From the sequence record OR757454.1: DNA of 64,000 bases; one strand, given 5' to 3'. Positions 28,324 through 56,810 of the stretch are shown piece by piece. The DNA comes from Escherichia phage BYEP02. The first letter of the stretch is position 1; each line of letters opens with the position of its first letter. The notes beneath the pieces are model-generated. The model had not been told where the DNA came from. It made no database searches and saw nothing but the letters and a program-made list of their open reading frames with translations. A program made the translations under genes and the position numbers.

Positions 28324-28477
28324 ATTTAATTTACTCCGTGTAGCTCAGTTTGGTAGAGCGTCTGCTTTGGGAGCAGAATGTCGCAGGTTCAAATCCTGCA
28401 ATTTAATTTACTCCGTGTAGCTCAGTTTGGTAGAGCGCCTGATTTGGGATCAGGAGGTCCAAGGTTCAAATCCTTGT
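28324..28477. repeat. 77-bp tandem unit covering tRNA-Pro; first 37 bp identical, remaining 40 bp diverged with compensatory stem changes
   Basis: atttaatttactccgtgtagctcagtttggtagagcg then tctgc..gcaga / cgcagg..cctgc versus cctga..tcagg / caagg..ccttg. Confidence 0.85.
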
Positions 28478-28484
28478 ATGGAGA
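28411..28484 (+). tRNA. tRNA-Pro (anticodon TGG); a partial divergent duplicate of its 5' half lies in the upstream repeat copy 28324-28400
   Basis: Anticodon stem-loop cctga-tttggga-tcagg, T-arm caagg-ttcaaat-ccttg, acceptor ctccgtg/tatggag (two G-U pairs); directly abuts tRNA-Ser. Confidence 0.7.
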
Positions 28485-28486
28485 CT

Positions 28487-28576
28487 GGAGGCGTGGCAGA
28501 GTGGTTTAATGCACCGGTCTTGAAAACCGGCAGTCGCTCCGGCGACTCATAGGTTCAAATCCTATCGCCTCCGCCA
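28487..28576 (+). tRNA. tRNA-Ser (anticodon TGA), type II
   Basis: Acceptor ggaggcg/cgcctcc, anticodon loop cttgaaa, long variable arm, T-loop ggttcaaatcc, CCA encoded. Confidence 0.8.
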
Positions 28577-28686
28577 GTTTTGCTGATTTAGCTCAGTAGG
28601 TAGAGCACAGTCGCTCCGGCGACTCATAGGTTCAAATCCTATCGCCTCCGCCAGTTTTTGCTGATTTAGCTCAGTAGGTAGAGCAC
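28532..28686. repeat. 77-bp tandem duplication spanning 3' half of tRNA-Ser and 5' half of tRNA-Thr (1-bp indel between copies)
   Basis: agtcgctccggcgactcataggttcaaatcctatcgcctccgccagtttt(t)gctgatttagctcagtaggtagagcac twice. Confidence 0.9.
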
Positions 28687-28735
28687 CTCACTTGTAATGA
28701 GGACGTCGGCGGTTCGATTCCGTCAATCAGCACCA
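28660..28735 (+). tRNA. tRNA-Thr (anticodon TGT)
   Basis: Acceptor gctgatt/aatcagc, anticodon loop cttgtaa, T-loop ggttcgattcc, CCA encoded; intact only via copy 2 of duplication 28532-28686. Confidence 0.78.
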
Positions 28736-28736
28736 A

Positions 28737-28811
28737 GGCCCTGTAGCTGGAAGGTTCAAGCAAGCGACTCATAATCGCCAGATGGTGGTTCAATTCCACC
28801 CAGGGCCACCA
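28737..28811 (+). tRNA. tRNA with anticodon CAT (Ile-lysidine type as in T4, or Met)
   Basis: Acceptor ggccctg/cagggcc, anticodon loop ctcataa, T-arm ggtgg-ttcaatt-ccacc, CCA encoded. Confidence 0.7.
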
Positions 28812-28820
28812 AATTAATTT

Positions 28821-28907
28821 GGGGAGTTATCCCGTAGAGGTAGCGGTGTGGACTGTAAATTCATTGTCATTGCGACTCGGGTGGTTCGACTCCACCACTC
28901 CCCACCA
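28821..28907 (+). tRNA. tRNA-Tyr (anticodon GTA), type II
   Basis: Acceptor ggggagt/actcccc, anticodon loop ctgtaaa, long variable arm, T-arm ggtgg-ttcgact-ccacc, CCA encoded. Confidence 0.65.
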
Positions 28908-28911
28908 ATTT

Positions 28912-28986
28912 GGATGTGTAGCTCAATGGCAGAGCGATCGCCTGTTAAGCGATTGGTTATAGGTTCGAATCCTATCACGTCCGCCA
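28912..28986 (+). tRNA. tRNA-Asn (anticodon GTT)
   Basis: Acceptor ggatgtg/cacgtcc, D-arm gctc-aatggca-gagc, anticodon loop ctgttaa, T-arm atagg-ttcgaat-cctat, CCA encoded. Confidence 0.75.
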
Positions 28987-29100
28987 AATTTGTGACAACT
29001 GTCACATTAATATCTACTTGACGCGATTATAGGGGTTGAACTGATCACTCTTCTCTTAATTTCGTGTGAAGACATCTTGATTGTTGGAGTAGGTATTAAT

Positions 29101-29166
29101 GTGGCCGTAGTTCAGTTGGTAGAACTCGAGATTGTGATTCTCGTAGTCATGGGTTCGACTCCCATC
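29101..29166 (+). tRNA. tRNA-His (anticodon GTG)
   Basis: Acceptor gtggccg/cggtcac, D-arm gttc-agttggta-gaac, anticodon stem-loop cgaga-ttgtgat-tctcg, T-arm atggg-ttcgact-cccat. Confidence 0.7.
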
Positions 29167-29170
29167 GGTC

Positions 29171-29246
29171 ACCCCAATTACGGGGCATAGCTCAGAAGGA
29201 AGAGCAAGGACCTTCTAAGTCCTAGGTCGTAGGTTCGATCCCTACT
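29171..29246 (+). tRNA. tRNA-Arg (anticodon TCT)
   Basis: Acceptor cggggca/tgcctcg, D-arm gctc-agaaggaa-gagc, anticodon loop cttctaa, T-loop ggttcgatccc, CCA encoded. Confidence 0.75.
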
Positions 29247-29274
29247 GCCTCGACCAATTATAAGTGAGGAAAAT

Positions 29275-29625
29275 ATGAAAGGTAATGTTTATTTAGTAGT
29301 TCATGATTTAACATTTTACTTCAATGAATATGAAAAACATATCTCATTTCGTGAAATTAATTTACTTTATCAACATGCGGATTATATTTATATTCAAAAC
29401 GAATTTGGTCATTGGCAATTTCTCAAAAATCGTTCATTTGGCTTAGATGGTTACGAATACTTTGAACGTAAAGACCTTTTAGATAAAATTCCGTTATCTA
29501 CGCAATATCAAAATCACAAATCTTTATATAAATGCCGTCCAATTCGAAATGTTGAATCCGCGTATGAAGCAATTGATTTATGGCGTGAACGCCGTAAACA
29601 GATTGATGCTTTAAAAGAATATTAA
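29275..29625 (+). CDS. Hypothetical protein (116 aa) within tRNA region
   Basis: ORF MKGNVYLVVHDLTFYFNEYEKHISFREINLLYQHADYIYIQNEFGHWQF... Confidence 0.5.
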   Translation: MKGNVYLVVHDLTFYFNEYEKHISFREINLLYQHADYIYIQNEFGHWQFLKNRSFGLDGYEYFERKDLLDKIPLSTQYQNHKSLYKCRPIRNVESAYEAIDLWRERRKQIDALKEY

Positions 29626-29886
29626 GAAACCGGGTCGCTACCGGTAAGTCGTCGGACTGATGTTCCCTGAGTAAGGAATTGCGTTAATAATCTTTGCGTT
29701 TATTGATGCCCTCTTACATCACAGCAGAAACGGCGCACCGAATTATCGATTCGAGGAAATATCTTTGCCGTAAGCCGAGTAGCGTTTTTGACGGAACGTT
29801 CGGATATGGTCGAGATATGGCCTTTTAAAAATATTGAGTAGCGTCAACTGCTTAATAACCGGGTTCGAATCCCGGCGTTTCGTACA
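29626..29886 (+). ncRNA. Candidate small stable RNA with tRNA-like T-arm (possibly analogous to T4 RNA species 1/2)
   Basis: Non-coding, GC-richer segment ending in ...ccgggttcgaatcccggcg (T-stem/loop-like) directly downstream of the tRNA cluster and followed by terminator hairpins. Confidence 0.35.
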
Positions 29887-29934
29887 AACACTTGCCTTAG
29901 CAGGTGGAACCCCGACAAGGTTGCCGCAAGGCTT

Positions 29935-29962
29935 AGCCCCGACCGAAAGGTTGGGGCTTTTT
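29935..29962 (+). terminator. Rho-independent terminator (first repeat copy)
   Basis: agccccgacc-gaaa-ggttggggct 10-bp stem, GAAA loop, TTTTT. Confidence 0.75.
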
Positions 29963-30015
29963 GGTATAACACTTGCCTTAGCAGGTGGAACCCCGACAAG
30001 GTTGCCGCAAGGCTT

Positions 30016-30043
30016 AGCCCCAGCCGAAAGGTTGGGGCTTTTT
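30016..30043 (+). terminator. Rho-independent terminator (second repeat copy)
   Basis: agccccagcc-gaaa-ggttggggct then ttttt. Confidence 0.7.
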
Positions 30044-30089
30044 AGTATAAATAAGTATATTAAATCTACAAATTAAAACAGGAAATAAG

Positions 30090-30563
30090 ATGAAATCATA
30101 TGCTCAATTTTTAAATGAAGCGGTGTTAAATGAAGCATCTAGCACTGAAATTCAAGCTGTTGCAAAAGCTGCCATTGCCGCGGGTAAATATTCCTATAAA
30201 GATGCTTCCGATGAATCACGATTCCAATTTGCTCGTGATATGAAAGCCGAAGGATTTACAGGGAATGCAGTTAGTATGGCTTGGAAAAGTTTAGTTGCTA
30301 CTGGAGCTGCTTTTGCAAAGGCTTCAGGTAAACCTGCTCCTAAGGCTGACCCTAAAGCAGCACAAGAAAAAAATATTGCTAAAGGAATTATCTCTAGGTA
30401 TGAAGCAATTCTTAAAGAACTTTTGATAATTAAGACCGAAGGCCAGAAACTTGCGCGTGCTTATAGTTTCAAAGATAATCCACATGCTCATGACCTAGAG
30501 TATGTTGAAGACCTCCAAAAAATCATCAAAGACCGCATTTGGTCTGCTAAACAAATCAAATAA
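30090..30563 (+). CDS. Internal-protein-like injected protein (N-terminal capsid-targeting sequence MKSYAQFLNEA), 157 aa
   Basis: N-terminus MKSYAQFLNEAVLNEA matches the MKTYxEFxxEA leader shared with the other internal-protein ORFs; Ala/Lys-rich. Confidence 0.6.
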   Translation: MKSYAQFLNEAVLNEASSTEIQAVAKAAIAAGKYSYKDASDESRFQFARDMKAEGFTGNAVSMAWKSLVATGAAFAKASGKPAPKADPKAAQEKNIAKGIISRYEAILKELLIIKTEGQKLARAYSFKDNPHAHDLEYVEDLQKIIKDRIWSAKQIK

Positions 30564-30570
30564 CATTCTT

Positions 30571-30598
30571 AGCCCCGACCAAAAGGTTGGGGCTTTTT
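30571..30598 (+). terminator. Rho-independent terminator (third copy of the same hairpin)
   Basis: agccccgacc-aaaa-ggttggggct + ttttt immediately after the stop at 30563. Confidence 0.75.
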
Positions 30599-30731
30599 GG
30601 TATCTAGGCCTTTCCGGGCCTCTCTAGGCATCATTTAGTTTATACCCTTTATAATATATTATCCTACCTTTTAATTGCCCCTCCTGACCCTAGAATTCCC
30701 TAAAACTTTTTAAAAATTTTTTCACAAAACT

Positions 30732-30761
30732 GTTTACATCCCTGTTCTTCCATGGTACTAT
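30732..30761 (+). promoter_or_regulatory. T4 early-type promoter
   Basis: tttttcacaaaactGTTTACatccctgttcttccatggTACTATacaac. Confidence 0.6.
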
Positions 30762-30803
30762 ACAACTATCAACTACTGATACAGAAAATAACTTGGAGAA
30801 TGA

Positions 30804-31145
30804 AATGGATAATTACGGCGAACTGTTCAACTTCTTTATGAAATGCGTTTCAGAAGATTTCGGTCGTACAGTGAATGATATTAAAGTCATCGGTCCTGAC
30901 CATCCAACTTCTTTATGAAATGTGTTTCAGAAGATTTTGGTCGTACAGTGAATGATATTAAAGTTATCGGTCCTGATCATCCGATGTTTGAAACTTACGC
31001 AGTAATGGGTAATGAAGATGGTCAGTGGTATACTGTAAAGGTTGTGATTAACATGTTCACTGCTGAAGGTTATGTTAAACTGTCTTCTAAAGTTTACCAT
31101 GATAACGATGAAATCGCAGAAGAATATTTCAATAATATGAAATAA
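30804..31145 (+). CDS. Hypothetical small protein; frameshifted by 77-bp duplication 30828-30981
   Basis: MDNYGELFNFFMKCVSEDFGRTVNDIKVIGPDHP...MFETYAVMGNEDGQWYTVKVVINMF... Confidence 0.55.
30828..30981. repeat. 77-bp tandem duplication inside small gene 30804..31145
   Basis: caacttctttatgaaatg(c/t)gtttcagaagattt(c/t)ggtcgtacagtgaatg... twice. Confidence 0.9.
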
Positions 31146-31175
31146 GTTTACACAGGCTCATGATTGAGATATTAT
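31146..31175 (+). promoter_or_regulatory. T4 early-type promoter
   Basis: GTTTACacaggctcatgattgagaTATTAT. Confidence 0.5.
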
Positions 31176-31201
31176 GAGCCTATAACTTTGAGGAGAACAT
31201 T

Positions 31202-31537: not shown

Positions 31538-31567
31538 GTTTACAAACTCTTGGGAGTAGAGTATAAT
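31538..31567 (+). promoter_or_regulatory. T4 early-type promoter
   Basis: GTTTACaaactcttgggagtagagTATAAT. Confidence 0.6.
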
Positions 31568-31612
31568 ACTCCCACGGATTATAAAAACCCTTAATTAACT
31601 AAAGGAAATGCT

Positions 31613-32206: not shown

Positions 32207-32211
32207 TGATA

Positions 32212-32227: not shown

Positions 32228-32247
32228 ATTACTTGGAGTAAGTAGGA

Positions 32248-32856: not shown

Positions 32857-33187
32857 ACCGTTGAAGTATGAATTAAAGCGCCAGCTAATTTCTACTGATG
32901 TATTAATAGGTCCTGTAATAGCTGTATCATTTGTAATTCTACTGGGGGTTGGAATAGTTATAGATGTTATGACTGATATTGAATCTAATATAATATTTGC
33001 GTCAACATTAATTCTTCCAATGATAGTTCCATTTTTATTAGTACCTGTAAATTGGGTAGGATACTGGTATCAAGGAAGACATTATCGTAAACGTGTACGT
33101 GAATGGAAAGCTCAGTGTAAAAAGATTAAAAAGGAACACCAGCTTAAACTTGCTGCGTATGAATTTGATGAAATTATGAAATTATGA
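32825..33187 (+). CDS. Small membrane protein (two hydrophobic helices)
   Basis: MSKPSMYLPSKPLKYELKRQLISTDVLIGPVIAVSFVILLGVGIVIDVM...; ATG with in-frame upstream extension in ORF 32804..33187. Confidence 0.5.
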   Translation: MSKPSMYLPSKPLKYELKRQLISTDVLIGPVIAVSFVILLGVGIVIDVMTDIESNIIFASTLILPMIVPFLLVPVNWVGYWYQGRHYRKRVREWKAQCKKIKKEHQLKLAAYEFDEIMKL

Positions 33188-33206
33188 AATTTGTTAAGGA
33201 ATCACG

Positions 33207-33646
33207 ATGCAAAAGCCAAAACTAAATAAAGTCAAATATTCGCTTCCTGAGTCATTTTTAATTTTTGCTGTGGCGTTGGCTGTAGCTCTTGCTGGTAGTC
33301 TTATTGGATTAATGATTGACTGTATTATTTTAAACATCGATGGCACAGTAATTATAACAGATGTTTGGAGTGAACTTCGTTTTACTATAGCGATTTCATT
33401 ATTTTCATTCTTTGGTACCATGTTATATTTTCATTATGATAATTTTAAAATAAATTGGCAAAGAAAAAAGGATTACAAAATACAATTAAAAGAATATAAT
33501 AATATTTTCATTATGATAATTTTAAAATAAATTGGCAAAGAAAAAAGGATTACAAAATACAATTAAAAGAATATAATAACTACATGTCTTATATTGAAAA
33601 TGAATCAATGGAAGAGTTTGTGAGTGATTGTAGGAAAATTAAATGA
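33207..33646 (+). CDS. Small membrane protein; frameshifted by 77-bp duplication 33427-33580
   Basis: MQKPKLNKVKYSLPESFLIFAVALAVALAGSLIGLMIDCIILNIDGTVI... Confidence 0.5.
33427..33580. repeat. 77-bp tandem duplication inside membrane-protein gene
   Basis: attttcattatgataattttaaaataaattggcaaagaaaaaaggattac... twice. Confidence 0.9.
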
Positions 33647-34131: not shown

Positions 34132-35526
<1,395 letters not shown>

Positions 35527-36637: not shown

Positions 36638-37254
36638 ATGAGAACATTTTTAACTGGACCTTATCTATCCCTGATGAATGCTTTTACACACCATTCTGAT
36701 GCTAGAGTAGAAGAAATTTGTAAAAACGATTATATCCCACCATTTGAAGACTTACTCAAACAGTATTGCACACTTCGACTAGATGGTGGACGTCAATCCG
36801 GTAAATCAACTGCCCGCCATTTGAAGAATTACTTAAACAGTACTGCACACTTCGACTAGATGGTGGACGTCAATCTGGTAAATCAATTGCTGTGACTAAC
36901 TTTGCTGCTAATTGGTTGTATGATGGCGGAACAGTTATTGTTCTTTCTAATACTTCAGCTTACGCTAAAATTTCTGCAAATAACATTAAAAAGGAATTTT
37001 CGCGTTATTCTAATGATGATATACGTTTTCGTTTATTTACTGATTCTGTGCGCAGTTTTATTGGTAATAAAGGAAGCAAGTTCAGAGGTTTATCGCTTTC
37101 GCGAATTTTGTATATAATCGATGAGCCTGTTAAATCTCCTGATATGGATAAAATTTACGATATTCATATTGAAACTGTGCACCACTGTTGCAATAGTAAA
37201 TGCTGCATTGGTGGTATTACTCGTCCACAGTTTTTCATAATCGGAATGCAATGA
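36638..37254 (+). CDS. P-loop NTPase-like hypothetical protein; frameshifted by 77-bp duplication 36740-36893
   Basis: Walker A-like GGRQSGKST and Walker B-like LYIIDEP; ORFs 36590..36859 + 36892..37254. Confidence 0.5.
36740..36893. repeat. 77-bp tandem duplication inside P-loop protein gene
   Basis: ccatttgaaga(c/a)ttact(c/t)aaacagta(t/c)tgcacacttcgactagatggtgg... twice. Confidence 0.9.
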
Positions 37255-37951: not shown

Positions 37952-38249
37952 TGGCAAAGATAATTATTGAAGGTTCTGAAGATGTGCTAAATGCTTTCGC
38001 CGAATGGTTTAGTAATTCAGGCGAACAGCAATTTAATGAAGCGTGGAAGGTTCTAAAGATGTGCTAAATGCTTTCGCCGAATGGTTTAGTAATTCAGGCG
38101 AACAGCAATTTAACGAAGCATGGAACATGGGTGATATTAATGGAATTTATCCTACTACAGAAATTTCTGTTCAAGGATATGGCATTCATGAACCTATTCG
38201 TTTAGTTGAATACGATTTATGTACTGGTGAGGAAGTCAAATATGATTGA
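37951..38249 (+). CDS. Hypothetical small protein; frameshifted by 77-bp duplication 37969-38122
   Basis: [73 protein letters not shown]. Confidence 0.5.
37969..38122. repeat. 77-bp tandem duplication inside small gene 37951..38249
   Basis: gaaggttct(g/a)aagatgtgctaaatgctttcgccgaatggtttagtaattcagg... twice. Confidence 0.9.
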
Positions 38250-39860: not shown

Positions 39861-40194
39861 AATTTTGGTTTTATGTATAGGATTAATTTCATTTTCTGCG
39901 TTAGCAAATACATCATACACTGAAATTAGAGAGTATGTAAACCGTACTGCCGCGGATTATTGTGGGAAAAATAAAGCATGCCAAGCTGAATTTGCGCAGA
40001 AATTAATATATGCATATAAAGACGGAGAAAGAGATAAATCAAGTAGATACAAAAATGATACTTTATTAAAACGATATGCTAAAAAGTGGAATACCTTAGA
40101 ATGTTCAGTTGCGGAGGAGAAAGATAAAGCCGCTTGTCATTCAATGGTTGACCGTTTGGTAGATTCTTATAATCGAGGATTGAGTACTAGATGA
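39853..40194 (+). CDS. Secreted small protein with signal peptide (113 aa)
   Basis: MTKILVLCIGLISFSALANTSYTEIREYVNRTAADYCGKNKACQAEF...; 3' end lies in copy 1 of junction duplication 40152-40305. Confidence 0.55.
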   Translation: MTKILVLCIGLISFSALANTSYTEIREYVNRTAADYCGKNKACQAEFAQKLIYAYKDGERDKSSRYKNDTLLKRYAKKWNTLECSVAEEKDKAACHSMVDRLVDSYNRGLSTR

Positions 40195-40305
40195 TTGTAA
40201 AATATATCAAGGGCGATATTGTCGCCCTCCGTTTGGTAGATTCTTATAATCGAGGATTGAGTACTAGATGATTGTAAAATATATCAAGGGCGATATTGTC
40301 GCCCT
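40152..40305. repeat. 77-bp tandem duplication at the junction of the secreted-protein gene and macrodomain-like gene
   Basis: ccgtttggtagattcttataatcgaggattgagtactagatgattgtaaaatatatcaagg... twice. Confidence 0.9.
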
Positions 40306-42654: not shown

Positions 42655-43114
42655 AATTCAGCGACTTTTCACAAAGTGGAAAACCTTCAAAGGCAGATGA
42701 ATACTTAGGTTTATTAATGGCTGCACAAGCTTATTTTCATTCTGCTCACAAAGTGGAAAACCTTCAAAGGCAGATGAATACTTAGGTTTATTAATGGCTG
42801 CACAAGCTTATTTTCATTCTGCACATTTTGAAACTAAAAGTTATGCTAGACACAAAGCATACGATTTTATTTTCTCCGAGTTGCCAGATTTGATTGATAA
42901 ATTTGGTGAGCAATATTTGGGGTATTCTGGTAGAAAATACACACCTTCAATTCCAGATGCTAGTAAACTTCCTACCGACACAATTAAAATGATTGATCGC
43001 ATACTAGACCAATCTAACAGCATTTATAAAGAAATGCCTCCAGCCATCCAAAGCACGATAGATGATATTACTGGAATGTTTTACCAGAGTAAGTATCTTC
43101 TTTCCCTCGAATAA
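42651..43114 (+). CDS. Hypothetical protein (rI.-1 position); frameshifted by 77-bp duplication 42670-42823
   Basis: [49 protein letters not shown]... Confidence 0.5.
42670..42823. repeat. 77-bp tandem duplication inside rI.-1-position gene
   Basis: cacaaagtggaaaaccttcaaaggcagatgaatacttaggtttattaatgg... twice. Confidence 0.9.
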
Positions 43115-44580: not shown

Positions 44581-45191
44581 ATGAAACGATTAGTATTAGA
44601 AGTTAGTTCATTTTTTGGTGAATTGGCTATAGAAAAAGTAAATAATATGTATCGTTTGACGCAAGAAGACGATATGCTATATTTTACGCCTAGCGAAATT
44701 ATTCATTTAACCCAAATTGAAAAACCTTACACTGATAAAATTGTAAGCATTAATGATGAGCATAAAATTCATTTCTATTCTTTATGCCCAGGATTTAACA
44801 TTGAAAGCGAGTCAATATGCTTATCAGTTATCCATTGGGATAGTTTTATAGCTAAGATTAAATATTTTTATTATTCTAATGAAAGAAAACATAGTTTAAA
44901 ATGGCTCAAAAATTGCAATGCTATTATTACTAACGCTTGCAATCAGAATGATGAAACTGTTTTAAACATAGTTTAAAATGGCTCAAAAATTGCAATGCTA
45001 TTATTACTAACGCTTGCAATCAGAATGATGAAACTGTTTTAAATGTATCAAAATGTTATGAAGATGGAGATGTCTTAACTATTCGTCAAATTGATGATTT
45101 TCGAGCGCATATTGTCACATTTACCAAAGACGAAGCTATTGCGTTAAAGACTTATCTTGATTCTGTCATTCCAACTATGATTTCAAAGTGA
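44581..45191 (+). CDS. Hypothetical protein (~177 aa); frameshifted by 77-bp duplication 44890-45043
   Basis: MKRLVLEVSSFFGELAIEKVNNMYRLTQEDDMLYFTPSEIIHLTQIEKPY...; C-terminus ...TKDEAIALKTYLDSVIPTMISK readable past the duplication. Confidence 0.5.
44890..45043. repeat. 77-bp tandem duplication inside gene 44581..45191
   Basis: catagtttaaaatggctcaaaaattgcaatgctattattactaacgcttgc... twice. Confidence 0.9.
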
Positions 45192-46189: not shown

Positions 46190-47276
46190 TGAAAACAGTA
46201 ATGAAAAGCTATTTTGGTAGTCATCTTTATGGAACTTCTACTCCAGAATCTGATGTAGATTTTAAAGAAATCTTTGTTCCTCCTGCTCGTGATATTCTTA
46301 TTGGAAATGTTAAAGAGCATATGAGCAAAAACACTAACAACACATCATCTAAAAACACTAAAGATGATATTGACCATGAACTATACAGTCTTAAGTATTT
46401 CTTTAAATTAGCAGCAGATGGTGAAACTGTAGCATTGGATATGCTCCACACTCCACCTGAACTAGTCTTAAATATTTCTTTAAATTAGCAGCAGATGGTG
46501 AAACCGTAGCATTGGATATGCTTCACACTCCACCTGAACTAGTGGTTAAATCTGATTTGCCTGATGTGTGGAAGTTTATTCAAGACAACCGTTCTCGTTT
46601 TTATACGACTAACATGAAATCCTATTTAGGATATGTCCGTAAGCAAGCTTCTAAATATGGCGTCAAGGGTTCTCGTTTGGCTGCATTACGTGATGTATTG
46701 AAAGTAGTTAATCAAATCCCTGAGCAATGGATTGATTACCAAGAAGATGGTTCTATTAAGCAGCGTCGTACTAAAGTTGAAGATATTAAGCATCGTCTTC
46801 CAGAAAACGAATTCTGTGAATGGGTGTTCCATAATCATGAGAAAACAGGCCCACAAACGTTCTACACTGTGTTGGGTCGTAAATATCAGACAACGCTTTC
46901 TCTTATTGAGCTTAAGCAGTCACTGAACAAATTAGATGCTGAATACGGTGAACGCGCTCGTAAGGCCGAAGCCAATGAAGGCATTGACTGGAAAGCTCTG
47001 AGCCATGCCTGCCGTGGTGGACTCCAACTATTGGAAATTTACAAAACTGGTGACTTGGTTTATCCACTCCAAGATGCTCCATTTATTCTCGACGTGAAGT
47101 TGGGTAAACACCCATTTAAAACAGTTCAAGAGTTTTTGGAAGATGTGGTCGATCAAGTAGAAGCAGCATCTACTGAAGCTTCTAAGAACGGTATGCAGCA
47201 AAAAGTAGACATGGGTTTCTGGGATGACTTCCTTGAGAAGGTTTATCTTGAAAACCACCGAAGCTATTATAAATGA
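46186..47276 (+). CDS. Nucleotidyltransferase-like protein (pol-beta superfamily motif), ~337 aa; frameshifted by 77-bp duplication 46390-46543
   Basis: N-terminal GSHLYGTSTPESDVDFKEIF matches the GS-x(9-13)-D-x-D/E nucleotidyltransferase signature; later acidic motif ETVALDMLH. Confidence 0.5.
46390..46543. repeat. 77-bp tandem duplication inside the nucleotidyltransferase-like gene
   Basis: cttaa(g/a)tatttctttaaattagcagcagatggtgaaac(t/c)gtagcattggatatgct... twice. Confidence 0.9.
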
Positions 47277-47303: not shown

Positions 47304-47327
47304 ATTTCAAAAATTTTTCACAAAACT

Positions 47328-47357
47328 GTTTACAAGCATAAAGCTTTATGGTACTAT
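47328..47357 (+). promoter_or_regulatory. T4 early-type promoter
   Basis: tttttcacaaaactGTTTACaagcataaagctttatggTACTATacaac. Confidence 0.6.
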
Positions 47358-47393
47358 ACAACTATCAAAACAAACACTTAAACGGAAAACAAA

Positions 47394-47543: not shown

Positions 47544-47803
47544 CAGTTTACGTAGATGTTTTAATGAATCATGGATGGAAACTTCGCGGTCATCCAACTA
47601 AAAATTGTCATATGTTCACTGATGGAGATATTGAAGAGCTTCACGAAATGGCAGAAGCAATAGGAATGAAACGTTCTTGGTTTCAAGATAAACGCATTAA
47701 ACATTATGACTTACGTGCAAGTCGTCGTCAAAAAGCTATAGAACTTGGCGCCGTAGAAGTATCGAGGCGAGAAGCAGTAAAAATTTGGCGAAAATTAAAA
47801 TAA
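47540..47803 (+). CDS. Small conserved protein (DUF4031-like N-terminus MTVYVD...), 87 aa
   Basis: MTVYVDVLMNHGWKLRGHPTKNCHMFTDGDIEELHEMAEAIGMKRSWFQDKRIKHYDLRASRRQKAIELGAVEVSRREAVKIWRKLK. Confidence 0.45.
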   Translation: MTVYVDVLMNHGWKLRGHPTKNCHMFTDGDIEELHEMAEAIGMKRSWFQDKRIKHYDLRASRRQKAIELGAVEVSRREAVKIWRKLK

Positions 47804-47806
47804 ATT

Positions 47807-47836
47807 GTTTACATGGTCTGTAGTTGTTGATACTAT
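47807..47836 (+). promoter_or_regulatory. T4 early-type promoter
   Basis: GTTTACatggtctgtagttgttgaTACTAT. Confidence 0.55.
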
Positions 47837-47874
47837 AGACCTATCAAAACAAATGAGTAAATTGGAGATACAAA

Positions 47875-48132: not shown

Positions 48133-49178
48133 ATGAAAACTGTAACTATCAATAAGGGTATCTACTTCGGTAAAGAAATCTCTGGAACTTTTGAGCTCTT
48201 AGGCGAATGGTTCCCAGATAATGCTCCGGTAGATGCACAAGGAGATGGTAAAGTTTTTGTTGAAATTGACGGTAAACGTCGCGGTGTTTGGGTTTACAAA
48301 TCAGACATTTCATATGATGGTGTAAAAGTTGAAGAAGTTAAAGAATCGTATGAAGATATGAAAACCCGCATTAATAAAAGATTTAATGTTATGGGAATGA
48401 TGACGAATGGTATTATTAATGGAAACATTCGTTCATTAATTATCTCTGGTGCGGCGGGTATTGGTAAAACGTATTCTTTAGATAAAGCTTTGAATAAAGC
48501 AAATGATAATGGATACATTGAATATAAAAGCATTAACGGTAAAATCTCTGGTATTGGTCTTTATGAGCAGCTTTGGAATAATCGTGAAGAGAATTCTGTC
48601 CTTTTGATTGATGATGTGGATGTTTTCTCTGATATGGACATTCTTAATCTTCTAAAAGCCGCTCTGGACACTGGAGAGACCCGTAAAGTCTGCTGGAGCA
48701 CTGCATCTTCTTACTTAGAAGAAAAAGGCATTGAGCGTGAGTTTGAATTTAAAGGAACGATTGTTTTTATCACAAACGTTGACATTGACCGCGAATTAGA
48801 CCGTGGTACTAAACTTGCTCCACACTTACAAGCATTAGTGTCCCGCTCAGTTTATTTGGATTTGGGTGTTCATACTAATGAAGAAATTATGGTCAGGGTT
48901 GAAGATGTTATTCTTTCAACTGACATGATGCAAAAGCGCGGTCTTTCTACACTAATGAAGAAATTATGGTCAGGGTTGAAGATGTTATTCTTTCAACCGA
49001 CATGATGCAAAAGCGCGGTCTTTCTGATGAAGAAACTTATAAAGCATTATCATGGATGAAAGTCAATGTTAACCGTTTACGCAATGTTTCACTGCGTACT
49101 GCACTTTATCTTGCTGACTTTATTATGACCGACAAAAACGGCTGGCAAGAAATCGCTGAGGTTACTCTTCTGAAATAA
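48133..49178 (+). CDS. AAA+ family ATPase, ~322 aa; frameshifted by 77-bp duplication 48874-49027
   Basis: Walker A ISGAAGIGKTYSL, Walker B VLLIDDVD, sensor-like FITNVD; ORFs 48121..49005 + 48966..49178. Confidence 0.6.
48874..49027. repeat. 77-bp tandem duplication inside the AAA+ ATPase gene
   Basis: actaatgaagaaattatggtcagggttgaagatgttattctttcaac... twice. Confidence 0.9.
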
Positions 49179-50636: not shown

Positions 50637-51608
50637 ATGTCAGCAGTAATTAATAATGTCAATGCAGTAATTAAATCTTTAGTTAATAAAAAAATGATGA
50701 ATGAATGGACTGTATTTCGTCGTGGAGAGCCAGATAAATTTTTTCATAGATTTAACCCAACTTTGGATTTGAATGTTATCGACAAAGATGTTCATGCTGA
50801 AATTTTAGATAAGTTTAAAGTTGATATTGGATTTGGATTAGAAAAACATCTACAGCGAACAAATGGGTCTGGAATGAGTTTATCTAATCGCATTATGAAA
50901 GCCCTTAATAAAATTGGAGCATTGTCTCGTATTAAGCGAACAAACGGGTCTGGAATGGGTTTATCTAATCGCATTATGAAAGCCCTTAATAAAATTGGAG
51001 CATTGTCTCGTATTAATGCAAGTGAAATTCTTCGCAATTATAATAAAGGCTATGATCTTTACGGTCGACTAATGCCGAAATTATCATTTGACCAAATGAT
51101 CGCAGATTTGTGGGAAAATCAACGACGATTATTAGCATTAGGCGCTCGATTAGCTAAAGGTCTAGATAAACAAATGATTTTTAAGACCAATAATACAGAA
51201 GACCTTAAATGCTTTAAATTTAGTATTCGCGGCGATGATTATTACGTCAGAGCTCGCTCTACAGATTATGTTAATATGGGGCATCATCTCTGTTTAGCTT
51301 TTGAAGTTTTAAAAGAAGCCGGAACATTAGAATATGTGTCTGGTGCTAAATGCCCGATTGGTTCAAGTTGTATTTTAATTTATCGCCCGGATGAATCCAG
51401 TTTAACTAAATTGCCTACAAAACCTGTACCAGTTCGCAGTAATGAAAAACATTCTGAGCAAATTGATTATTTTAATAAGCAAATTGAAGAGCTGAATATT
51501 TCTATTCAACAGTATGACGATGAAATTTTCAGACTATCTGGATTGAGTAGTAAAGCTAAATCTGAGCGTGAAAAATTAATTAAAATTGTTGATTTACTTA
51601 AATCTTAA
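50637..51608 (+). CDS. Paralog-array protein 1 (323 aa), C-terminal coiled coil; contains an in-frame 27-aa tandem repeat
   Basis: Continuous ORF; internal RTNGSGM(S/G)LSNRIMKALNKIGALSRI(K/N) x2 encoded by an 81-bp tandem repeat at 50855-51016; C-terminus ...QIEELNISIQQYDDEIFRLSGLSSKAKSEREKLIKIVDLLKS. Confidence 0.65.
   Translation: MSAVINNVNAVIKSLVNKKMMNEWTVFRRGEPDKFFHRFNPTLDLNVIDKDVHAEILDKFKVDIGFGLEKHLQRTNGSGMSLSNRIMKALNKIGALSRIKRTNGSGMGLSNRIMKALNKIGALSRINASEILRNYNKGYDLYGRLMPKLSFDQMIADLWENQRRLLALGARLAKGLDKQMIFKTNNTEDLKCFKFSIRGDDYYVRARSTDYVNMGHHLCLAFEVLKEAGTLEYVSGAKCPIGSSCILIYRPDESSLTKLPTKPVPVRSNEKHSEQIDYFNKQIEELNISIQQYDDEIFRLSGLSSKAKSEREKLIKIVDLLKS
50855..51016 (+). repeat. In-frame tandem repeat 2 x 81 bp inside paralog-array gene 1
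   Basis: gcgaacaaatgggtctggaatgagtttatctaatcgcattatgaaagcccttaataaaattggagcattgtctcgtattaa repeated with 3 substitutions; 81 = 27 codons so the frame is kept. Confidence 0.85.
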
Positions 51609-51616
51609 GGAACACC

Positions 51617-52699: not shown

Positions 52700-53701
52700 A
52701 TGACTCGTAACGAATATATCAAATCATTCAATAGCGTTATTGATGATAAAGCTATACCGATGTTTGGTCAAAATATCGTTCTTTCTATTATCAATCAATG
52801 GCTCAATAGTGTTGATGCAAGTATTGTTTCTTCTACTAAATTTATTCATGAAATTCGTAAAATTTCTAGTCGTGTAGATAAAGATGTTATCAAGAAAACC
52901 TTTAAAGAGTCTCGTCTTCTTTCATATTTGGTTAATCGGGATATTCTTGGTAATTTTGGGAAAGAAATTAAACGAACTAAAGATGTAGTAGGATATAATT
53001 GGTTCGGTGATGTTAATTCTTATCATCTTAATAATAAAGAAGACCCTGAGAATATTTTTACTCGTCGTTGGATTAGTAATTTCAGACTTTTCAAAGGACA
53101 GATTCTAAAATCAGCTTCTAAATTATGTTATGGCGATTATCGTCAAATTCATCCTTTGGCTTCTGATATGATTATCGTAAAAGAATATGAACTTGATAAA
53201 AATAAAGTATCTATTTTTGTGAATTATGGATTTTTTACACCAGAAACTAACCAAAAGAATATTAATAAATTTTTCTCAATTGCTAGCACTATAACTCGTC
53301 AATTAGAGACCGCATTACTTTGTATGGAAACAGTAGAAAATATTCATACTTATCCTTTTAAGAATATATGCGGTTGGGAAGGATATAAAATTGTAATTAG
53401 TCTTCGTGAAGTGAAATGTGCTTATTCACCTACTGATAAAGAAATTTACCAACAAAAATGTGATGAAATTGTGAATACTCCTAAAGAAGAAACTACCCTT
53501 GAGGAACTAATGGAATGTCTTGACGATTCACCTGAACCGGTAGAAATTCGTCCAGAAGTTATTGCACTAGAAAAAGCTTATAAAGAAGTTCTAGAAATTT
53601 CTAATAAAGCGCAGAAAGAATATGAGAAGGCTAAAAGGATTTGGGAAGAATCTGTTAATCGCCTTGATCGTTTGGAACAAGCTTTACAGTTAATTAAGTA
53701 A
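52700..53701 (+). CDS. Paralog-array protein 3 (~333 aa), C-terminal coiled coil
   Basis: MTRNEYIKSFNSVIDDKAIPMFGQNIVLSIINQWLNSVDASIVSSTKF...; C-terminus ...EKAYKEVLEISNKAQKEYEKAKRIWEESVNRLDRLEQALQLIK. Confidence 0.65.
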   Translation: MTRNEYIKSFNSVIDDKAIPMFGQNIVLSIINQWLNSVDASIVSSTKFIHEIRKISSRVDKDVIKKTFKESRLLSYLVNRDILGNFGKEIKRTKDVVGYNWFGDVNSYHLNNKEDPENIFTRRWISNFRLFKGQILKSASKLCYGDYRQIHPLASDMIIVKEYELDKNKVSIFVNYGFFTPETNQKNINKFFSIASTITRQLETALLCMETVENIHTYPFKNICGWEGYKIVISLREVKCAYSPTDKEIYQQKCDEIVNTPKEETTLEELMECLDDSPEPVEIRPEVIALEKAYKEVLEISNKAQKEYEKAKRIWEESVNRLDRLEQALQLIK

Positions 53702-53807
53702 TTTAAAGCCAAGGATGGCTCGGAGTATAAGTTAATCGTCTTGATCGTCTGGAACAAGCTTTACAGTTAATTAAGTAATTTAAAGCCAAGGATGGCTCGG
53801 AGTATAA
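53654..53807. repeat. 77-bp tandem duplication spanning the 3' end of paralog-array gene 3 and downstream intergenic
   Basis: gttaatcg(c/t)cttgatcgt(t/c)tggaacaagctttacagttaattaagtaatttaaagcc... twice. Confidence 0.9.
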
Positions 53808-53830
53808 ATCATTAACCAAGTGAGAAGAAC

Positions 53831-54760: not shown

Positions 54761-55146
54761 AAAAGCGTCTATTAGAAGATATTGCAGCTTCAAGTAATTC
54801 CAGTCTAATTAAAATTATTATGGCTGGTGAAGAAGACGATCTGGAAATGCGCGGAAAGATTCATGGTTGTGATGATTTAGATTTTAAACCTCCAGCCTGG
54901 GATGCTATTATGGTTATGGTTAAACGTCGCGAAAGGGCTTCTAAAAACGTTCCTAATTGTCCTGAATGCGGTACTGAACAAGTTCAATTGATTAACTGGC
55001 GTAAACCGGAACTTGAATATAAATGCCGTCATTGCAAACATAAATTTAGTAAGCATGCTCCGGAAATGGTTAAATTACCTGACTCTACTGAGTTCTTTAA
55101 AGAACTTGCGAGTGTTCAACCAATGCCTAATAATATTTTGGATTAA
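54757..55146 (+). CDS. Zn-ribbon-containing small protein (129 aa)
   Basis: Cys pairs CPECGTEQ...CRHCKHKF; [63 protein letters not shown]... Confidence 0.5.
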
Positions 55147-55148
55147 AA

Positions 55149-55391
55149 ATGACCAAGCGTAAAGAATATATGGAGACTGCTGAAAAGGCAGTCCGTGAAT
55201 TAGCAATAGCTTATTATAATGAACACGGTAAATTTCCTGATAGATACAGCGTGCTTAAATCTGCTTTAACTCGTTCATATAAAAATATGCTATCAGAAGT
55301 AAGTGATATTATATACAAACATAAAGAACAAACGGGCCAAAGTCTTGATTACGACGAGACTTTTAAACAAGTACTAGGAATTAAGGAATAA
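55149..55391 (+). CDS. Hypothetical small protein (80 aa)
   Basis: [83 protein letters not shown]. Confidence 0.5.
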
Positions 55392-55392
55392 T

Positions 55393-55656
55393 ATGTTTAA
55401 AGTATATGGTTATGATAGCAACATCCACAAATGTGTGTATTGCGATAATGCAAAACGTCTTTTGACAGTGAAGAAACAACCGTTTGAATTTATCAACATT
55501 ATGCCGGAAAAAGGTGTTTTTGATGATGAGAAAATCGCTGAGCTTCTGACTAAACTAGGTCGTGATACTCAAATCGGCTTGACAATGCCCCAGGTATTTG
55601 CTCCTGATGGAAGTTATATTGGTGGATTTGACAAATTGCGGGAATACTTTAAATGA
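55393..55656 (+). CDS. nrdC: Thioredoxin/glutaredoxin NrdC (intact, 87 aa)
   Basis: MFKVYGYDSNIHKCVYCDNAKRLLTVKKQPFEFINIMPEKGVFDDEKIAELLTKLGRDTQIGLTMPQVFAPDGSYIGGFDKLREYFK; CVYC active site; near-identical to T4 NrdC. Confidence 0.92.
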   Translation: MFKVYGYDSNIHKCVYCDNAKRLLTVKKQPFEFINIMPEKGVFDDEKIAELLTKLGRDTQIGLTMPQVFAPDGSYIGGFDKLREYFK

Positions 55657-55868
55657 TTCTCGAAGGAACTGATTATATCCATGACTACCGCGGAAGCGCG
55701 GTATATGTAGGTGATGAGGTTGCAGTTTATTACGGGTATGGAACTTTGATGACAGCCAAAGTTATTCAAATTAAAAATAACCGTGCTAAACTCGAAGTTT
55801 ATTATTCTAACGGTGAAAAGTCTATTTCTAAATGGAAATATGGCGATTGTATGGTCAAACTGGGGTAA
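55653..55868 (+). CDS. Hypothetical small protein (71 aa)
   Basis: ORF MILEGTDYIHDYRGSAVYVGDEVAVYYGYGTLMTAKVIQIKNNRAKLEVYYSNGEKSISKWKYGDCMVKLG. Confidence 0.5.
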   Translation: MILEGTDYIHDYRGSAVYVGDEVAVYYGYGTLMTAKVIQIKNNRAKLEVYYSNGEKSISKWKYGDCMVKLG

Positions 55869-55870
55869 AT

Positions 55871-56041
55871 ATGATTTACGATATTAGTGTATCAAGAACT
55901 CCGTCAATGGTTACTATTCCAGCCGAAGAACTAGATCGTCTTCAGAAAATTGAAGAACTTCTTTGGGAAATTGAATCTGATTTGCCATCAGGACTAGAAT
56001 CCTGGATTGATTATGAAGAACTTAATAAGCTTCGGGGTTAA
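55871..56041 (+). CDS. Hypothetical small protein (56 aa)
   Basis: MIYDISVSRTPSMVTIPAEELDRLQKIEELLWEIESDLPSGLESWIDYEELNKLRG; stop lies in copy 1 of junction duplication 55966-56119. Confidence 0.45.
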   Translation: MIYDISVSRTPSMVTIPAEELDRLQKIEELLWEIESDLPSGLESWIDYEELNKLRG

Positions 56042-56119
56042 AGGAAATTGAATCTGATTTGCCATCAGGACTAGAATCCTGGATTGATTATGAAGAACTT
56101 AATAAGCTTCGGGGTTAAA
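55966..56119. repeat. 77-bp tandem duplication (identical) at the 3' end of gene 55871..56041
   Basis: ggaaattgaatctgatttgccatcaggactagaatcctggattgattatg... twice. Confidence 0.9.
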
Positions 56120-56240
56120 CCTTGGTGGGCGGTTAGATGGGAAACTGTAGAGCCAGAGCCGGAAGAACCGGTTTACACTGATGAAGAAACAGTATATAAT
56201 GAACCAACGATAAATGACTTAATTGATATGGAGATGGGAC

Positions 56241-56726
56241 ATGATTACAGTAGATAAGTGGTTTAGAATTAATCGTGCTGATACAGGGCTGTGTAATTAC
56301 TGGCCGGAACTTAGTGCAGGTACTGTCTTTAAAGTTCGTGAACTTGCAAAAGAATGTGAAGATGATATAGAGCCTGATACTGGAATTATTGAAATTGAAC
56401 TTTCCGACGGAAAGATTATTAACATCTATGATAAGCCAATTACGTATTGGTGCTTGTGGAATACTGAATCAGTAGAAAATGGCGAAATTGAAGAAGTTGT
56501 AGAGCGAACTAATCAAGTTGTTCAGAAGCCTAAAGCCGATTTTCAAGGTGAACGTATTTCATACGCATTAGCTAAATTAGCTGCACAAGAAAATAACGAT
56601 GGTTATGAAGGAAATTTGATGCAAGCTGCGGCAGAATATATTGAATGGCTTGAAACTCAAATTTCTTTTTCTGACCAAAAGATTCGGCAATATAAGCGAT
56701 TGAATCAAATGTTTTACAATACTTGA
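56241..56726 (+). CDS. pin: Probable protease inhibitor Pin (161 aa)
   Basis: MITVDKWFRINRADTGLCNYWPELSAGTVFKVRELAKECEDDIEPDTG...; size and position between nrdC and gene 49 as T4 pin. Confidence 0.5.
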   Translation: MITVDKWFRINRADTGLCNYWPELSAGTVFKVRELAKECEDDIEPDTGIIEIELSDGKIINIYDKPITYWCLWNTESVENGEIEEVVERTNQVVQKPKADFQGERISYALAKLAAQENNDGYEGNLMQAAAEYIEWLETQISFSDQKIRQYKRLNQMFYNT

Positions 56727-56733
56727 AAATAAT

Positions 56734-56810
56734 GCTGCGGCAGAATATATTGAATGGCTTGAAACTCAAATTTCTTTTTCTGACCGAGCGTTTTAATACT
56801 TGAAAATAAT
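56734..56810. repeat. 77-bp inserted segment homologous to 56625-56733 (pin 3' end) but with ~32 bp replaced by 5 bp
   Basis: gctgcggcagaatatattgaatggcttgaaactcaaatttctttttctgacc shared; copy then has gagcg instead of aaaagattcggcaatataagcgattgaatcaaatg, then ttttaatacttgaaaataat. Confidence 0.85.

What the first reader, a model, noticed from the sequence alone, without database searches (positions are those of the whole stretch)
28324..56810. Some inserted copies look like alleles from a second, closely related genome rather than random errors
In the tRNA-Pro unit (28324-28477) the two copies differ at about ten positions in the anticodon and T stems, and the changes are compensatory (ctgc/gcag vs ctga/tcag; gcagg/cctgc vs caagg/ccttg), as expected between homologous tRNA genes. 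At 56734-56810 the 77-bp copy matches 56625-56733 except that ~32 bp are replaced by 5 bp. In gene 16 (1637-1790) three of four differences are third-position transitions. Random sequencing or copy errors would not produce base-pair covariation or clean indel variants; this suggests two co-existing haplotypes collapsed into one sequence.
Basis: partly seen in the sequence, partly recalled or inferred. Interest (0 to 1): 0.7.

Follow-up and report, generated by a model that had tools for sequence, protein, structure and literature searches.

The report
Untrimmed contig overlaps from mixed phages
The divergent "inserted copies" are real alleles from related T4-like phages, but they lie side by side only because about 56 assembly fragments from a mixed phage sample were joined without removing their 77-base overlaps, so this is an assembly artefact and not biology.

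Summary
There are 55 tandem duplications: 51 of period 77, two of period 81, one 77/78 and one 109/77. None occurs in slur03, the closest genome, or in 14 other natural T4-like loci. Removing one copy at each join gives a single colinear alignment to slur03 and restores 97-98 of 103 genes, against 69 intact in the raw window.

The 88 differences between paired copies look like natural divergence. They are 86% third-codon, 90% synonymous and 3:1 transitions. About 90% of alleles on either side occur in a panel of 17 natural phage loci. The variant tRNA-Pro copy is the VEc74 allele, with four compensated stem pairs. The short copy at 56734 is a common natural indel allele.

The base just after or just before the 77-mer is naturally polymorphic at 30 of 51 joins, against an 8% background. 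That is the mark of branch points in a k=77 de Bruijn graph.

Best explanation: contigs from a mixed population of T4-like phages, one about 99.8% slur03-like where it is visible, were chained without overlap trimming. Where the chain changes haplotype, the two copies differ. The copies are untrimmed overlaps, not insertions. Biological interest is low.

The parts
437..590 (.). 77-nt join duplicate, copies identical
   Evidence: 0 differences; both copies equal slur03
1634..1787 (.). 77-nt join duplicate in gene 16 (small terminase), 4 differences
   Evidence: all transitions, 3 third-position synonymous; copy 1 has 2 and copy 2 has 4 mismatches to slur03, so three allele combinations are visible
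2042..2195 (.). 77-nt join duplicate, identical
   Evidence: the base after the 77-mer is polymorphic in the panel
3492..3645 (.). 77-nt join duplicate, identical
   Evidence: the base after the 77-mer is polymorphic
3801..3954 (.). 77-nt join duplicate, identical
4024..4177 (.). 77-nt join duplicate, 6 differences, all in one codon phase
   Evidence: the copy 1 haplotype occurs in 3 panel genomes; copy 2 is slur03-like
5016..5169 (.). 77-nt join duplicate, 1 difference
   Evidence: copy 2 equals slur03
6904..7057 (.). 77-nt join duplicate, 2 differences
   Evidence: the left 231 nt have 0 mismatches to gut-metagenome contig ERZ917836 (L044); copy 2 equals slur03
8801..8954 (.). 77-nt join duplicate, identical
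   Evidence: both flanking bases are polymorphic
10737..10890 (.). 77-nt join duplicate, 1 difference
12118..12271 (.). 77-nt join duplicate, 3 differences
   Evidence: copy 2 equals slur03
13492..13645 (.). 77-nt join duplicate, identical
   Evidence: the base after is polymorphic
14796..14949 (.). 77-nt join duplicate, identical
   Evidence: the base after is polymorphic
15518..15671 (.). 77-nt join duplicate, 1 difference near the boundary
17541..17694 (.). 77-nt join duplicate, 2 differences
   Evidence: natural genomes with the copy 1 haplotype carry T at the next base, those with the copy 2 haplotype carry C; the window shows C
18373..18526 (.). 77-nt join duplicate, 2 differences
   Evidence: the left 231 nt have 0 mismatches to PinkRuby, BGP and an IMG/VR contig; copy 2 equals slur03
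18748..18901 (.). 77-nt join duplicate, 3 differences
19266..19419 (.). 77-nt join duplicate, 1 difference
19631..19784 (.). 77-nt join duplicate, 1 difference
19978..20131 (.). 77-nt join duplicate in gene 5 (baseplate hub/lysozyme), 9 differences
   Evidence: the copy 1 haplotype matches BGP and PinkRuby at 9 of 9 sites; copy 2 equals slur03
20592..20745 (.). 77-nt join duplicate, identical
21118..21271 (.). 77-nt join duplicate, 1 difference
   Evidence: copy 2 has 2 mismatches to slur03, so copy 2 is not simply slur03 sequence
21386..21539 (.). 77-nt join duplicate, 1 difference
21667..21820 (.). 77-nt join duplicate, identical
22967..23120 (.). 77-nt join duplicate, 1 difference
23419..23572 (.). 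77-nt join duplicate, 2 differences
23657..23810 (.). 77-nt join duplicate, 2 differences
24248..24401 (.). 77-nt join duplicate, 3 differences
25192..25345 (.). 77-nt join duplicate, 1 difference at the boundary
25438..25591 (.). 77-nt join duplicate, 1 difference
26098..26251 (.). 77-nt join duplicate, identical
26489..26642 (.). 77-nt join duplicate, identical
27353..27506 (.). 77-nt join duplicate, 1 difference
28322..28475 (.). 77-nt join duplicate across the Gly-Pro spacer and tRNA-Pro, 8 differences. Copy 1 is a truncated VEc74-type allele; copy 2 is the slur03 allele and runs on into the intact tRNA-Pro at 28411-28485.
28531..28685 (.). Join duplicate across the 3' end of tRNA-Ser, the spacer and the 5' end of tRNA-Thr. 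Copy 1 is 77 nt (TTTT); copy 2 is 78 nt (TTTTT, the slur03 form).
29889..30050 (.). Join duplicate of period 81, 3 differences. Single copy in all panel genomes.
   Evidence: the left end is 100% VEc74 / IMG/VR-like and the right part is Kelasse-like; the length of 81 is unexplained
30828..30981 (.). 77-nt join duplicate, 4 differences
   Evidence: copy 2 equals slur03
33425..33578 (.). 77-nt join duplicate, identical
34319..34472 (.). 77-nt join duplicate, 2 differences
   Evidence: the left 231 nt have 0 mismatches to PinkRuby; copy 2 equals slur03
35183..35336 (.). 77-nt join duplicate, identical
36736..36889 (.). 77-nt join duplicate, 6 differences
   Evidence: the copy 1 haplotype occurs in 2 panel genomes; copy 2 equals slur03
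37969..38122 (.). 77-nt join duplicate, 3 differences
40152..40305 (.). 77-nt join duplicate, identical
42669..42822 (.). 77-nt join duplicate, identical
44887..45040 (.). 77-nt join duplicate, identical
46387..46540 (.). 77-nt join duplicate, 3 differences
48872..49025 (.). 77-nt join duplicate, 2 differences
50854..51015 (.). Join duplicate of period 81, 2 differences. Copy 2 equals slur03. Single copy in all panel genomes.
53654..53807 (.). 77-nt join duplicate, 2 differences
55966..56119 (.). 77-nt join duplicate, identical
56625..56810 (.). Join duplicate at the 3' end of the pin (Lon inhibitor) gene. Copy 1 is 109 nt (slur03 long allele); copy 2 is 77 nt (common short allele with an earlier stop codon).
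57188..57341 (.). 77-nt join duplicate, 1 difference
58506..58659 (.). 77-nt join duplicate, 1 difference
59941..60094 (.). 77-nt join duplicate, 3 differences
63619..63772 (.). 77-nt join duplicate, 4 differences

Best explanation
The window is not the sequence of one phage genome. It is a chain of about 56 short-read contigs, 212-3,678 nt long with a median of 955 nt.

Inferred origin: the contigs come from a de Bruijn-graph assembly with k = 77, of DNA holding more than one closely related Tequatrovirus genotype. One genotype is about 99.8% identical to Escherichia phage slur03 wherever it can be seen.

Such assemblers break contigs where the graph branches, that is, at sites that vary within the sample. 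Neighbouring contigs are left sharing k nucleotides at their ends. Here the contigs were placed in genome order and concatenated without trimming, so each join shows the same 77-nt interval twice.

Where both contigs carry the same haplotype at the join, the copies are identical (17 joins). Where the chain changes haplotype at the join, the copies differ by the natural SNPs and indels that separate the haplotypes (34 joins of 77 nt and the 4 special joins).

What is shown: the fixed length, absence of the duplications from relatives, gene breakage and its repair on de-duplication, the natural-allele character of the differences, and polymorphic sites directly flanking the 77-mers.

What is inferred: the assembler type, the reference-guided ordering of contigs that are not true graph neighbours, and the presence of at least 3 haplotype combinations in the read set or in the multi-k graph.
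For: Fixed period. 51 duplications have period exactly 77 and none has period 55, 76, 78, 99 or 127. There are none at all in the homologous slur03 region or in 383 kb of 14 other natural loci.

Colinearity. The window maps to slur03 as consecutive blocks that overlap by 77 nt in reference coordinates. Deleting one copy per join gives a single 59.8-kb colinear alignment.

Gene breakage. 77 is not a multiple of 3, and 34 of 103 slur03 proteins are broken in the raw window. 97-98 of 103 are intact after de-duplication.

Natural spectrum. The 88 differences fall at codon positions 1/2/3 as 8/2/62. They are 65 synonymous to 7 non-synonymous and 66 transitions to 22 transversions. The other 476 window-versus-slur03 mismatches have the same spectrum.

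Natural alleles. Of 80 differing sites covered by a panel of 17 natural loci, the copy 1 allele is present at 72 and the copy 2 allele at 70. Background polymorphism is 7.3%.

Haplotype matches. Whole copy 1 haplotypes match other phages, for example 9 of 9 sites to BGP and PinkRuby at 19978. Left fragment ends match other phages with 0-2 mismatches per 231 nt. Right fragment starts match slur03 with 0 mismatches in 15 of 19 cases.

Branch-point signature. The base just after the 77-mer is polymorphic in the panel at 21 of 51 joins, and the base just before at 12 of 51. Background is 8.2% (p = 1.6e-10 and 7e-4).

Literature. De Bruijn assemblers break at within-population variation and leave shared contig ends of length maxK (PMC10914622).

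Own knowledge: 77 is the largest default k of SPAdes for 150-nt reads.
Against: In a strict de Bruijn graph, neighbouring contigs share an identical k-mer, yet 34 of 51 overlaps differ at up to 9 sites. The chained contigs therefore cannot all be true graph neighbours. This needs extra assumptions: ordering against a reference, and branch points on both haplotype backgrounds (at least 3 haplotypes, or chimeric k-mers carried over from smaller-k rounds).

Two joins are 81 nt, not 77, and I could not explain that.

The joins are strongly directional. There are 241 mismatches to slur03 in the 231 nt before a join and 48 in the 231 nt after (p = 3.6e-6). A strand-symmetric assembler does not predict this by itself.

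No reads, assembly graph or record metadata were available. The junction sequence was not found in IMG/VR or JGI metagenomes. The window was not found as such in the phage collection, and a junction-containing stretch had no match in the plasmid or E. coli collections.
Confidence: 0.8

Rival explanations
1. Reference-patched assembly. Contigs of one non-slur03 phage were laid on a slur03-like reference and the gaps were filled with reference sequence. Each filler piece starts with the reference version of the last 77 nt of the preceding contig. On this view the second genome is a reference file, not a co-existing strain.
For: Copy 2 is identical to slur03 in 29 of 34 non-identical joins. Nearly every fragment starts with a long run of zero mismatches to slur03 and only later becomes divergent. 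This directionality is what a contig-then-filler layout would give.
Against: Breakpoints sit directly next to naturally polymorphic sites. That fits graph branching within a polymorphic read set, not random contig ends. At 1634 and 21118 copy 2 differs from slur03, and at 1634, 29889 and 56625 the fragment after the join is divergent from its first bases. Seventeen joins are duplicated even though both sides are identical, so overlap-blind concatenation is needed in any case.
Confidence: 0.12
2. Deliberately or accidentally constructed chimera. For example, a simulated or benchmark sequence built from two or more real genomes in overlapping pieces.
For: The source could not be found in any collection searched. 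The overlaps behave as if set by coordinate, not by sequence identity.
Against: The enrichment of natural polymorphism exactly at the base flanking the 77-mer, and the irregular piece lengths, are what a real assembly graph produces. An arbitrary cutting scheme would not give them.
Confidence: 0.05
3. Genuine tandem duplications in a viable phage genome, which then diverged or arose by recombination between co-infecting phages.
For: The copy differences are natural alleles. T-even phages recombine very frequently (own knowledge).
Against: There are 55 events of one fixed length. Each shifts the reading frame. They break 34 of 103 genes, including terminase, neck, baseplate and tail-fibre genes and tRNAs. 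They are absent from every relative examined.
Confidence: 0.01
4. Random sequencing or copying errors in duplicated blocks.
For: None beyond the existence of mismatches. The single T-run length difference at 28531 could be a homopolymer error.
Against: The differences are 86% third-codon, 90% synonymous and 3:1 transitions. About 90% of alleles are seen in natural genomes against a 7% background. The tRNA stem changes are compensated.
Confidence: 0.01

Closest known systems
Shared contig ends of length maxK in de Bruijn-graph assemblies (SPAdes/metaSPAdes, MEGAHIT), as used by COBRA to re-join viral contigs (PMC10914622)
   Same: The overlap has a fixed length equal to a k-mer size. Breaks occur at within-population variation. 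The fragments are in the kilobase range. The overlaps appear as tandem repeats if contigs are concatenated without trimming.
   Different: True graph neighbours share an identical k-mer. Here two thirds of the overlaps differ by natural alleles, and two overlaps are 81 nt.
Haplotypic (heterotype) false duplications at contig ends in assemblies of heterozygous or mixed samples, the problem addressed by purge_haplotigs and purge_dups (own knowledge)
   Same: Two allelic versions of one locus are kept side by side at a contig boundary. The differences between them are genuine polymorphisms.
   Different: Those artefacts have variable, usually kilobase lengths and come from diploid genomes. Here the length is fixed at k, and the source is a phage population.
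Escherichia phage slur03 / slur08 / slur14 (Tequatrovirus slur03; LN881728.1)
   Same: After de-duplication the window is colinear with slur03 73,771-133,516 at about 99% identity. It has the same 10-tRNA set and the same gene order.
   Different: About 500-560 substitutions lie clustered in patches. In those patches other Tequatroviruses (VEc74, BGP, PinkRuby, Kelasse, metagenome contigs) match better.

Membership tests
Untrimmed k-mer overlap between de Bruijn-graph contigs | All overlaps have one length, equal to the assembler's k | tested here: met
   51 of 55 joins have period exactly 77. Two more are 77 nt on one copy (77/78 and 109/77). Two are 81.
Untrimmed k-mer overlap between de Bruijn-graph contigs | The two overlapping ends are identical in sequence | tested here: not met
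   Only 17 of 51 are identical; 34 differ at 1-9 sites. Many chained contigs are therefore not true graph neighbours.
Untrimmed k-mer overlap between de Bruijn-graph contigs | Contig ends lie at graph branch points, so the base next to the terminal k-mer is variable in the sample | tested here: met
   Tested by proxy with natural genomes. The base after the 77-mer is polymorphic at 21 of 51 joins and the base before at 12 of 51, against an 8.2% background.
Untrimmed k-mer overlap between de Bruijn-graph contigs | The duplication is absent from the real genome: no reads span copy 1 into copy 2 | not testable with these tools
   No reads were available. Indirect support: the duplications are absent from all relatives and they break genes.
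Haplotypic false duplication (mixed-strain assembly) | The two copies are allelic, and their differences are natural polymorphisms | tested here: met
   Codon-position, synonymous and transition spectra. Alleles present in natural genomes. Compensated tRNA stem pairs.
Haplotypic false duplication (mixed-strain assembly) | Each copy is in phase with its own flank, so the two sides belong to different haplotypes | tested here: met
   Left ends match non-slur03 phages with 0-2 mismatches per 231 nt. Right starts match slur03 with 0 mismatches in 15 of 19 cases.
Haplotypic false duplication (mixed-strain assembly) | Both haplotypes are present in the same read set | not testable with these tools
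   No reads were available. The rival is a slur03-like reference used as filler.
Genuine tandem duplication in a phage genome | Compatible with gene function and found in related genomes | tested here: not met
   34 of 103 proteins are broken. There are no such duplications in slur03 or in 14 other loci.

The most novel reading that the evidence does not exclude
The read set may come from a real co-infecting or co-circulating population of slur03-like and other Tequatroviruses. The branch points on both haplotype backgrounds less than 77 nt from the neighbouring SNP would then reflect true recombinant genomes, with all allele combinations between very close sites. The broken assembly would be an accidental record of very fine-scale recombination among T-even phages in one sample.
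Probability: 0.1. Interest if true: 0.3.

Novelty: not a real feature. Interest (0 to 1): 0.1.

Why it matters
The value is for data quality. This sequence has about 55 false duplications per 64 kb. They frameshift a third of its genes, truncate copies of tRNA genes, and splice together haplotypes that may never have existed in one genome.

Used as it stands, the sequence would produce false pseudogenes, false repeats, false recombination signals and false "novel" proteins.

The check also gives a simple recipe for spotting the problem elsewhere. Look for many tandem repeats of one length equal to an assembler k, with the flanking base at naturally variable sites. It has no bearing on an open biological question.

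Tried and rejected
Provenance. An exact junction 40-mer was absent from IMG/VR and from JGI metagenome contigs. A junction-containing stretch had no match in the plasmid or complete E. coli collections. An ORF spanning a join was not on record. The phage collection holds only clean relatives.

Search for a single donor genome. I looked for one genome that explains all the non-slur03 stretches. None in the panel does so. Different patches match different phages best, and one 347-nt fragment (19708-20054) matches nothing above 96.8%.

IMG/VR as a comparison panel.

Strict two-haplotype de Bruijn model. This predicts that the last SNP lies exactly one base before copy 1. It does not.

Junction density versus local divergence. 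I expected a correlation at the 4-kb scale. It was not significant (rho 0.26, p = 0.32).

The 81-nt joins. I tried to explain them by nearby indels or by paired branch points. The flanking polymorphisms do not fit either idea.

Literature. A search for a described 77-bp artefact in phage genomes found nothing specific.

Full report
WHAT THE WINDOW IS

The window is a T4-like phage (Tequatrovirus) segment. It runs from the large terminase gene through the neck, baseplate and tail genes and a 10-gene tRNA cluster to the nrd/alpha-gt region. Its closest relative in the phage collection is Escherichia phage slur03, which is identical to slur08 and slur14. The match is about 99% but comes in many pieces.

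CHECKING THE OBSERVATION

- tRNA-Pro. In the 77-nt register, 28322-28398 and 28399-28475 differ at 8 positions. Four are in the anticodon stem as two fully compensated pairs. One is in the variable loop. Three are in the T stem as two compensated pairs, with one 3' partner on the base at the copy boundary. The first copy is truncated. Together with its upstream flank it is 100% identical over 200 nt to phages VEc74 and ESh28, and at least 99% identical in 205 records. The second copy is the slur03 allele and continues into the intact gene. Both full alleles fold to the same cloverleaf and are called tRNA-Pro(TGG).
- 56625-56810. A 109-nt copy (the slur03 allele) is followed by a 77-nt copy. 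In the short copy a 41-nt stretch is replaced by 9 nt. The short form with its right flank aligns without gaps at 99.6% to phage CJY920 and at 95-99% to about 500 records, so it is the common natural allele. Read directly, both forms end the pin gene in frame, at different stop codons.
- Gene 16. The four differences are all transitions. Three are third-position synonymous and one is a first-position Ile/Val change.

THE PATTERN IS GENERAL

The window holds 51 tandem duplications of period exactly 77. It also holds two of period 81 (29889-30050 and 50854-51015), one 77/78 pair (28531-28685) and the 109/77 pair. They are spread from 437 to 63772. No other period between 60 and 129 gives any. 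The homologous 64 kb of slur03 and 383 kb of 14 other natural T4-like loci have none at all.

Against slur03 the window breaks into consecutive blocks that overlap by 77 nt in reference coordinates. Removing one copy at each of the 55 joins gives one colinear alignment of 59.8 kb, to slur03 73,771-133,516.

Because 77 is not a multiple of three, the raw window breaks 34 of 103 slur03 proteins. After de-duplication 97-98 are intact, whichever copy is removed. The duplications are therefore not part of a working genome.

THE DIFFERENCES ARE NATURAL ALLELES

Of the 51 period-77 joins, 17 are exact. The other 34 differ at 1-9 sites, 88 sites in all. The character of those sites is as follows.

- Of the 72 sites in unambiguous coding sequence, codon positions 1/2/3 hold 8/2/62.
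- 65 are synonymous and 7 are not.
- Over all 88 sites, transitions outnumber transversions 66 to 22.
- The remaining 476 substitutions between the window and slur03 have the same spectrum.

I assembled a panel of 17 natural loci (GenBank phages, IMG/VR contigs, and metagenome and SRA-derived contigs). Eighty of the 88 sites are covered by it. The copy 1 allele is present at 72 of them, the copy 2 allele at 70, and both at 62. Only 7.3% of neighbouring positions vary in the panel.

Whole haplotypes match. At 19978 all nine copy 1 alleles are those of phages BGP and PinkRuby. The last 231 nt before a join often match some other natural phage with 0-2 mismatches. The 231 nt after the join match slur03 with no mismatch in 15 of 19 cases tested. 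Random error is excluded, and the two copies really do trace to different genomes.

WHY THE LENGTH IS 77, AND WHERE THE JOINS FALL

I asked whether the positions flanking the duplicated 77-mer are special. They are.

- The base immediately after the 77-mer is polymorphic in the panel at 21 of 51 joins.
- The base immediately before it is polymorphic at 12 of 51.
- Background is 8.2% (p = 1.6e-10 and 7e-4).
- Positions in the same codon phase a few bases away vary at only about 16% and 9%.

A terminal k-mer bounded by a variable site is the defining geometry of a branch vertex in a de Bruijn graph. Such assemblers break contigs at within-population variation and leave neighbouring contigs sharing maxK bases (PMC10914622). 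From my own knowledge, 77 is the largest default k of SPAdes for 150-nt reads. The shortest fragment is 212 nt and the median is 955 nt.

BEST EXPLANATION

Contigs from a k = 77 assembly of a mixed population of closely related Tequatroviruses were put in genome order and concatenated without trimming their overlaps. Where the chain stays on one haplotype, the copies are identical. Where it switches, they differ by the natural polymorphisms between the haplotypes.

WHAT DOES NOT FIT CLEANLY

- Non-identical overlaps. True graph neighbours share an identical k-mer, so the 34 non-identical joins cannot be graph neighbours. They are probably contigs from different haplotype backgrounds that end or begin at the same SNP and were placed next to each other by reference-guided ordering. 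That needs branch points on both backgrounds: at least three haplotype combinations in the sample, or chimeric k-mers inherited from smaller-k rounds of a multi-k assembler. At several joins, natural genomes with the copy 1 haplotype carry the other allele at the next base than the window shows after copy 2. At 1634 three allele combinations are directly visible. This step is inference.
- Directionality. Copy 2 equals slur03 in 29 of 34 non-identical joins. Fragments start with long zero-mismatch runs to slur03 and end divergent. There are 241 mismatches in the 231 nt before joins against 48 after (p = 3.6e-6). A chaining step that prefers contigs whose start aligns perfectly to a slur03-like reference would produce this, and so would reference filler.
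- The 81-nt joins. These are also single copy in every natural genome, but I could not explain their length.

RIVALS

- Reference filler. A slur03-like reference used as filler between contigs of one other phage explains the directionality. It does not explain the polymorphism at the flanking base, the joins where copy 2 is not slur03 (1634, 21118), or the fragments that are divergent from their first base (1711, 29970, 56734). I give it about 0.12.
- Constructed chimera. This cannot be excluded because the source was not found. It would not naturally place cuts beside variable sites.
- Genuine duplications, and random errors. Both are refuted.

VERDICT

The inference that the variant copies are alleles of a second, closely related genome is right. 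The framing needs correcting: these are untrimmed, haplotype-switching contig overlaps in a chimeric assembly, not insertions into a genome, and more than two haplotypes are probably involved. The feature is an artefact of a known kind. Biological interest is low. Its practical value is as a warning about this sequence and as a recipe for spotting the same fault elsewhere.

Noticed in passing
window 19404-19554: A natural 24-nt (8-codon) periodic repeat lies on the minus strand of gene 5, next to one of the 77-nt joins. It is probably the repeat of the C-terminal beta-helix needle of the baseplate hub/lysozyme. It is unrelated to the artefact.
   Followed up: no
window 25904-25957, 26347-26400, 47315-47368, 47794-47847: Four copies of a roughly 54-nt family contain GTTTACA, a spacer, and GATACTAT or GGTACTAT. 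From my own knowledge this resembles T4 early-promoter consensus. They lie in intergenic positions.
   Followed up: no
window about 49,900 and about 61,800 (slur03 120073 and 131404): After de-duplication, two single-base deletions relative to slur03 still truncate the homologues of slur03 CDS 119770-120297 and 131081-131626. They could be natural frameshifts or further assembly errors.
   Followed up: partly
window 33158-33191: An 8-nt microsatellite (TATGAAAT, about 4 copies) carries one extra unit relative to slur03. It lies inside a stretch with many small indels, in the e.4 / slur03 104056-104242 region.
   Followed up: no
window 27500-28160 versus L039, L040, L041: Like slur03 and VEc74, the window has a roughly 600-nt ORF directly upstream of tRNA-Leu and no tRNA-Gln. 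RefSeq annotates that ORF as an HNH endonuclease. BGP, Kelasse and PinkRuby carry tRNA-Gln at that place.
   Followed up: no
all joins, for example 17541-17694, 18373-18526, 57188-57341: The joins are directional. Sequence before a join is divergent from slur03 and sequence after it is slur03-identical. Natural genomes with the copy 1 haplotype carry the other allele at the very next base. This suggests that every such join is a haplotype switch placed exactly at a SNP.
   Followed up: partly
window 29889-30050 and 50854-51015: Two joins have period 81 instead of 77. Both are single copy in all natural genomes checked, and nearby indels or SNPs do not explain the length.
   Followed up: partly
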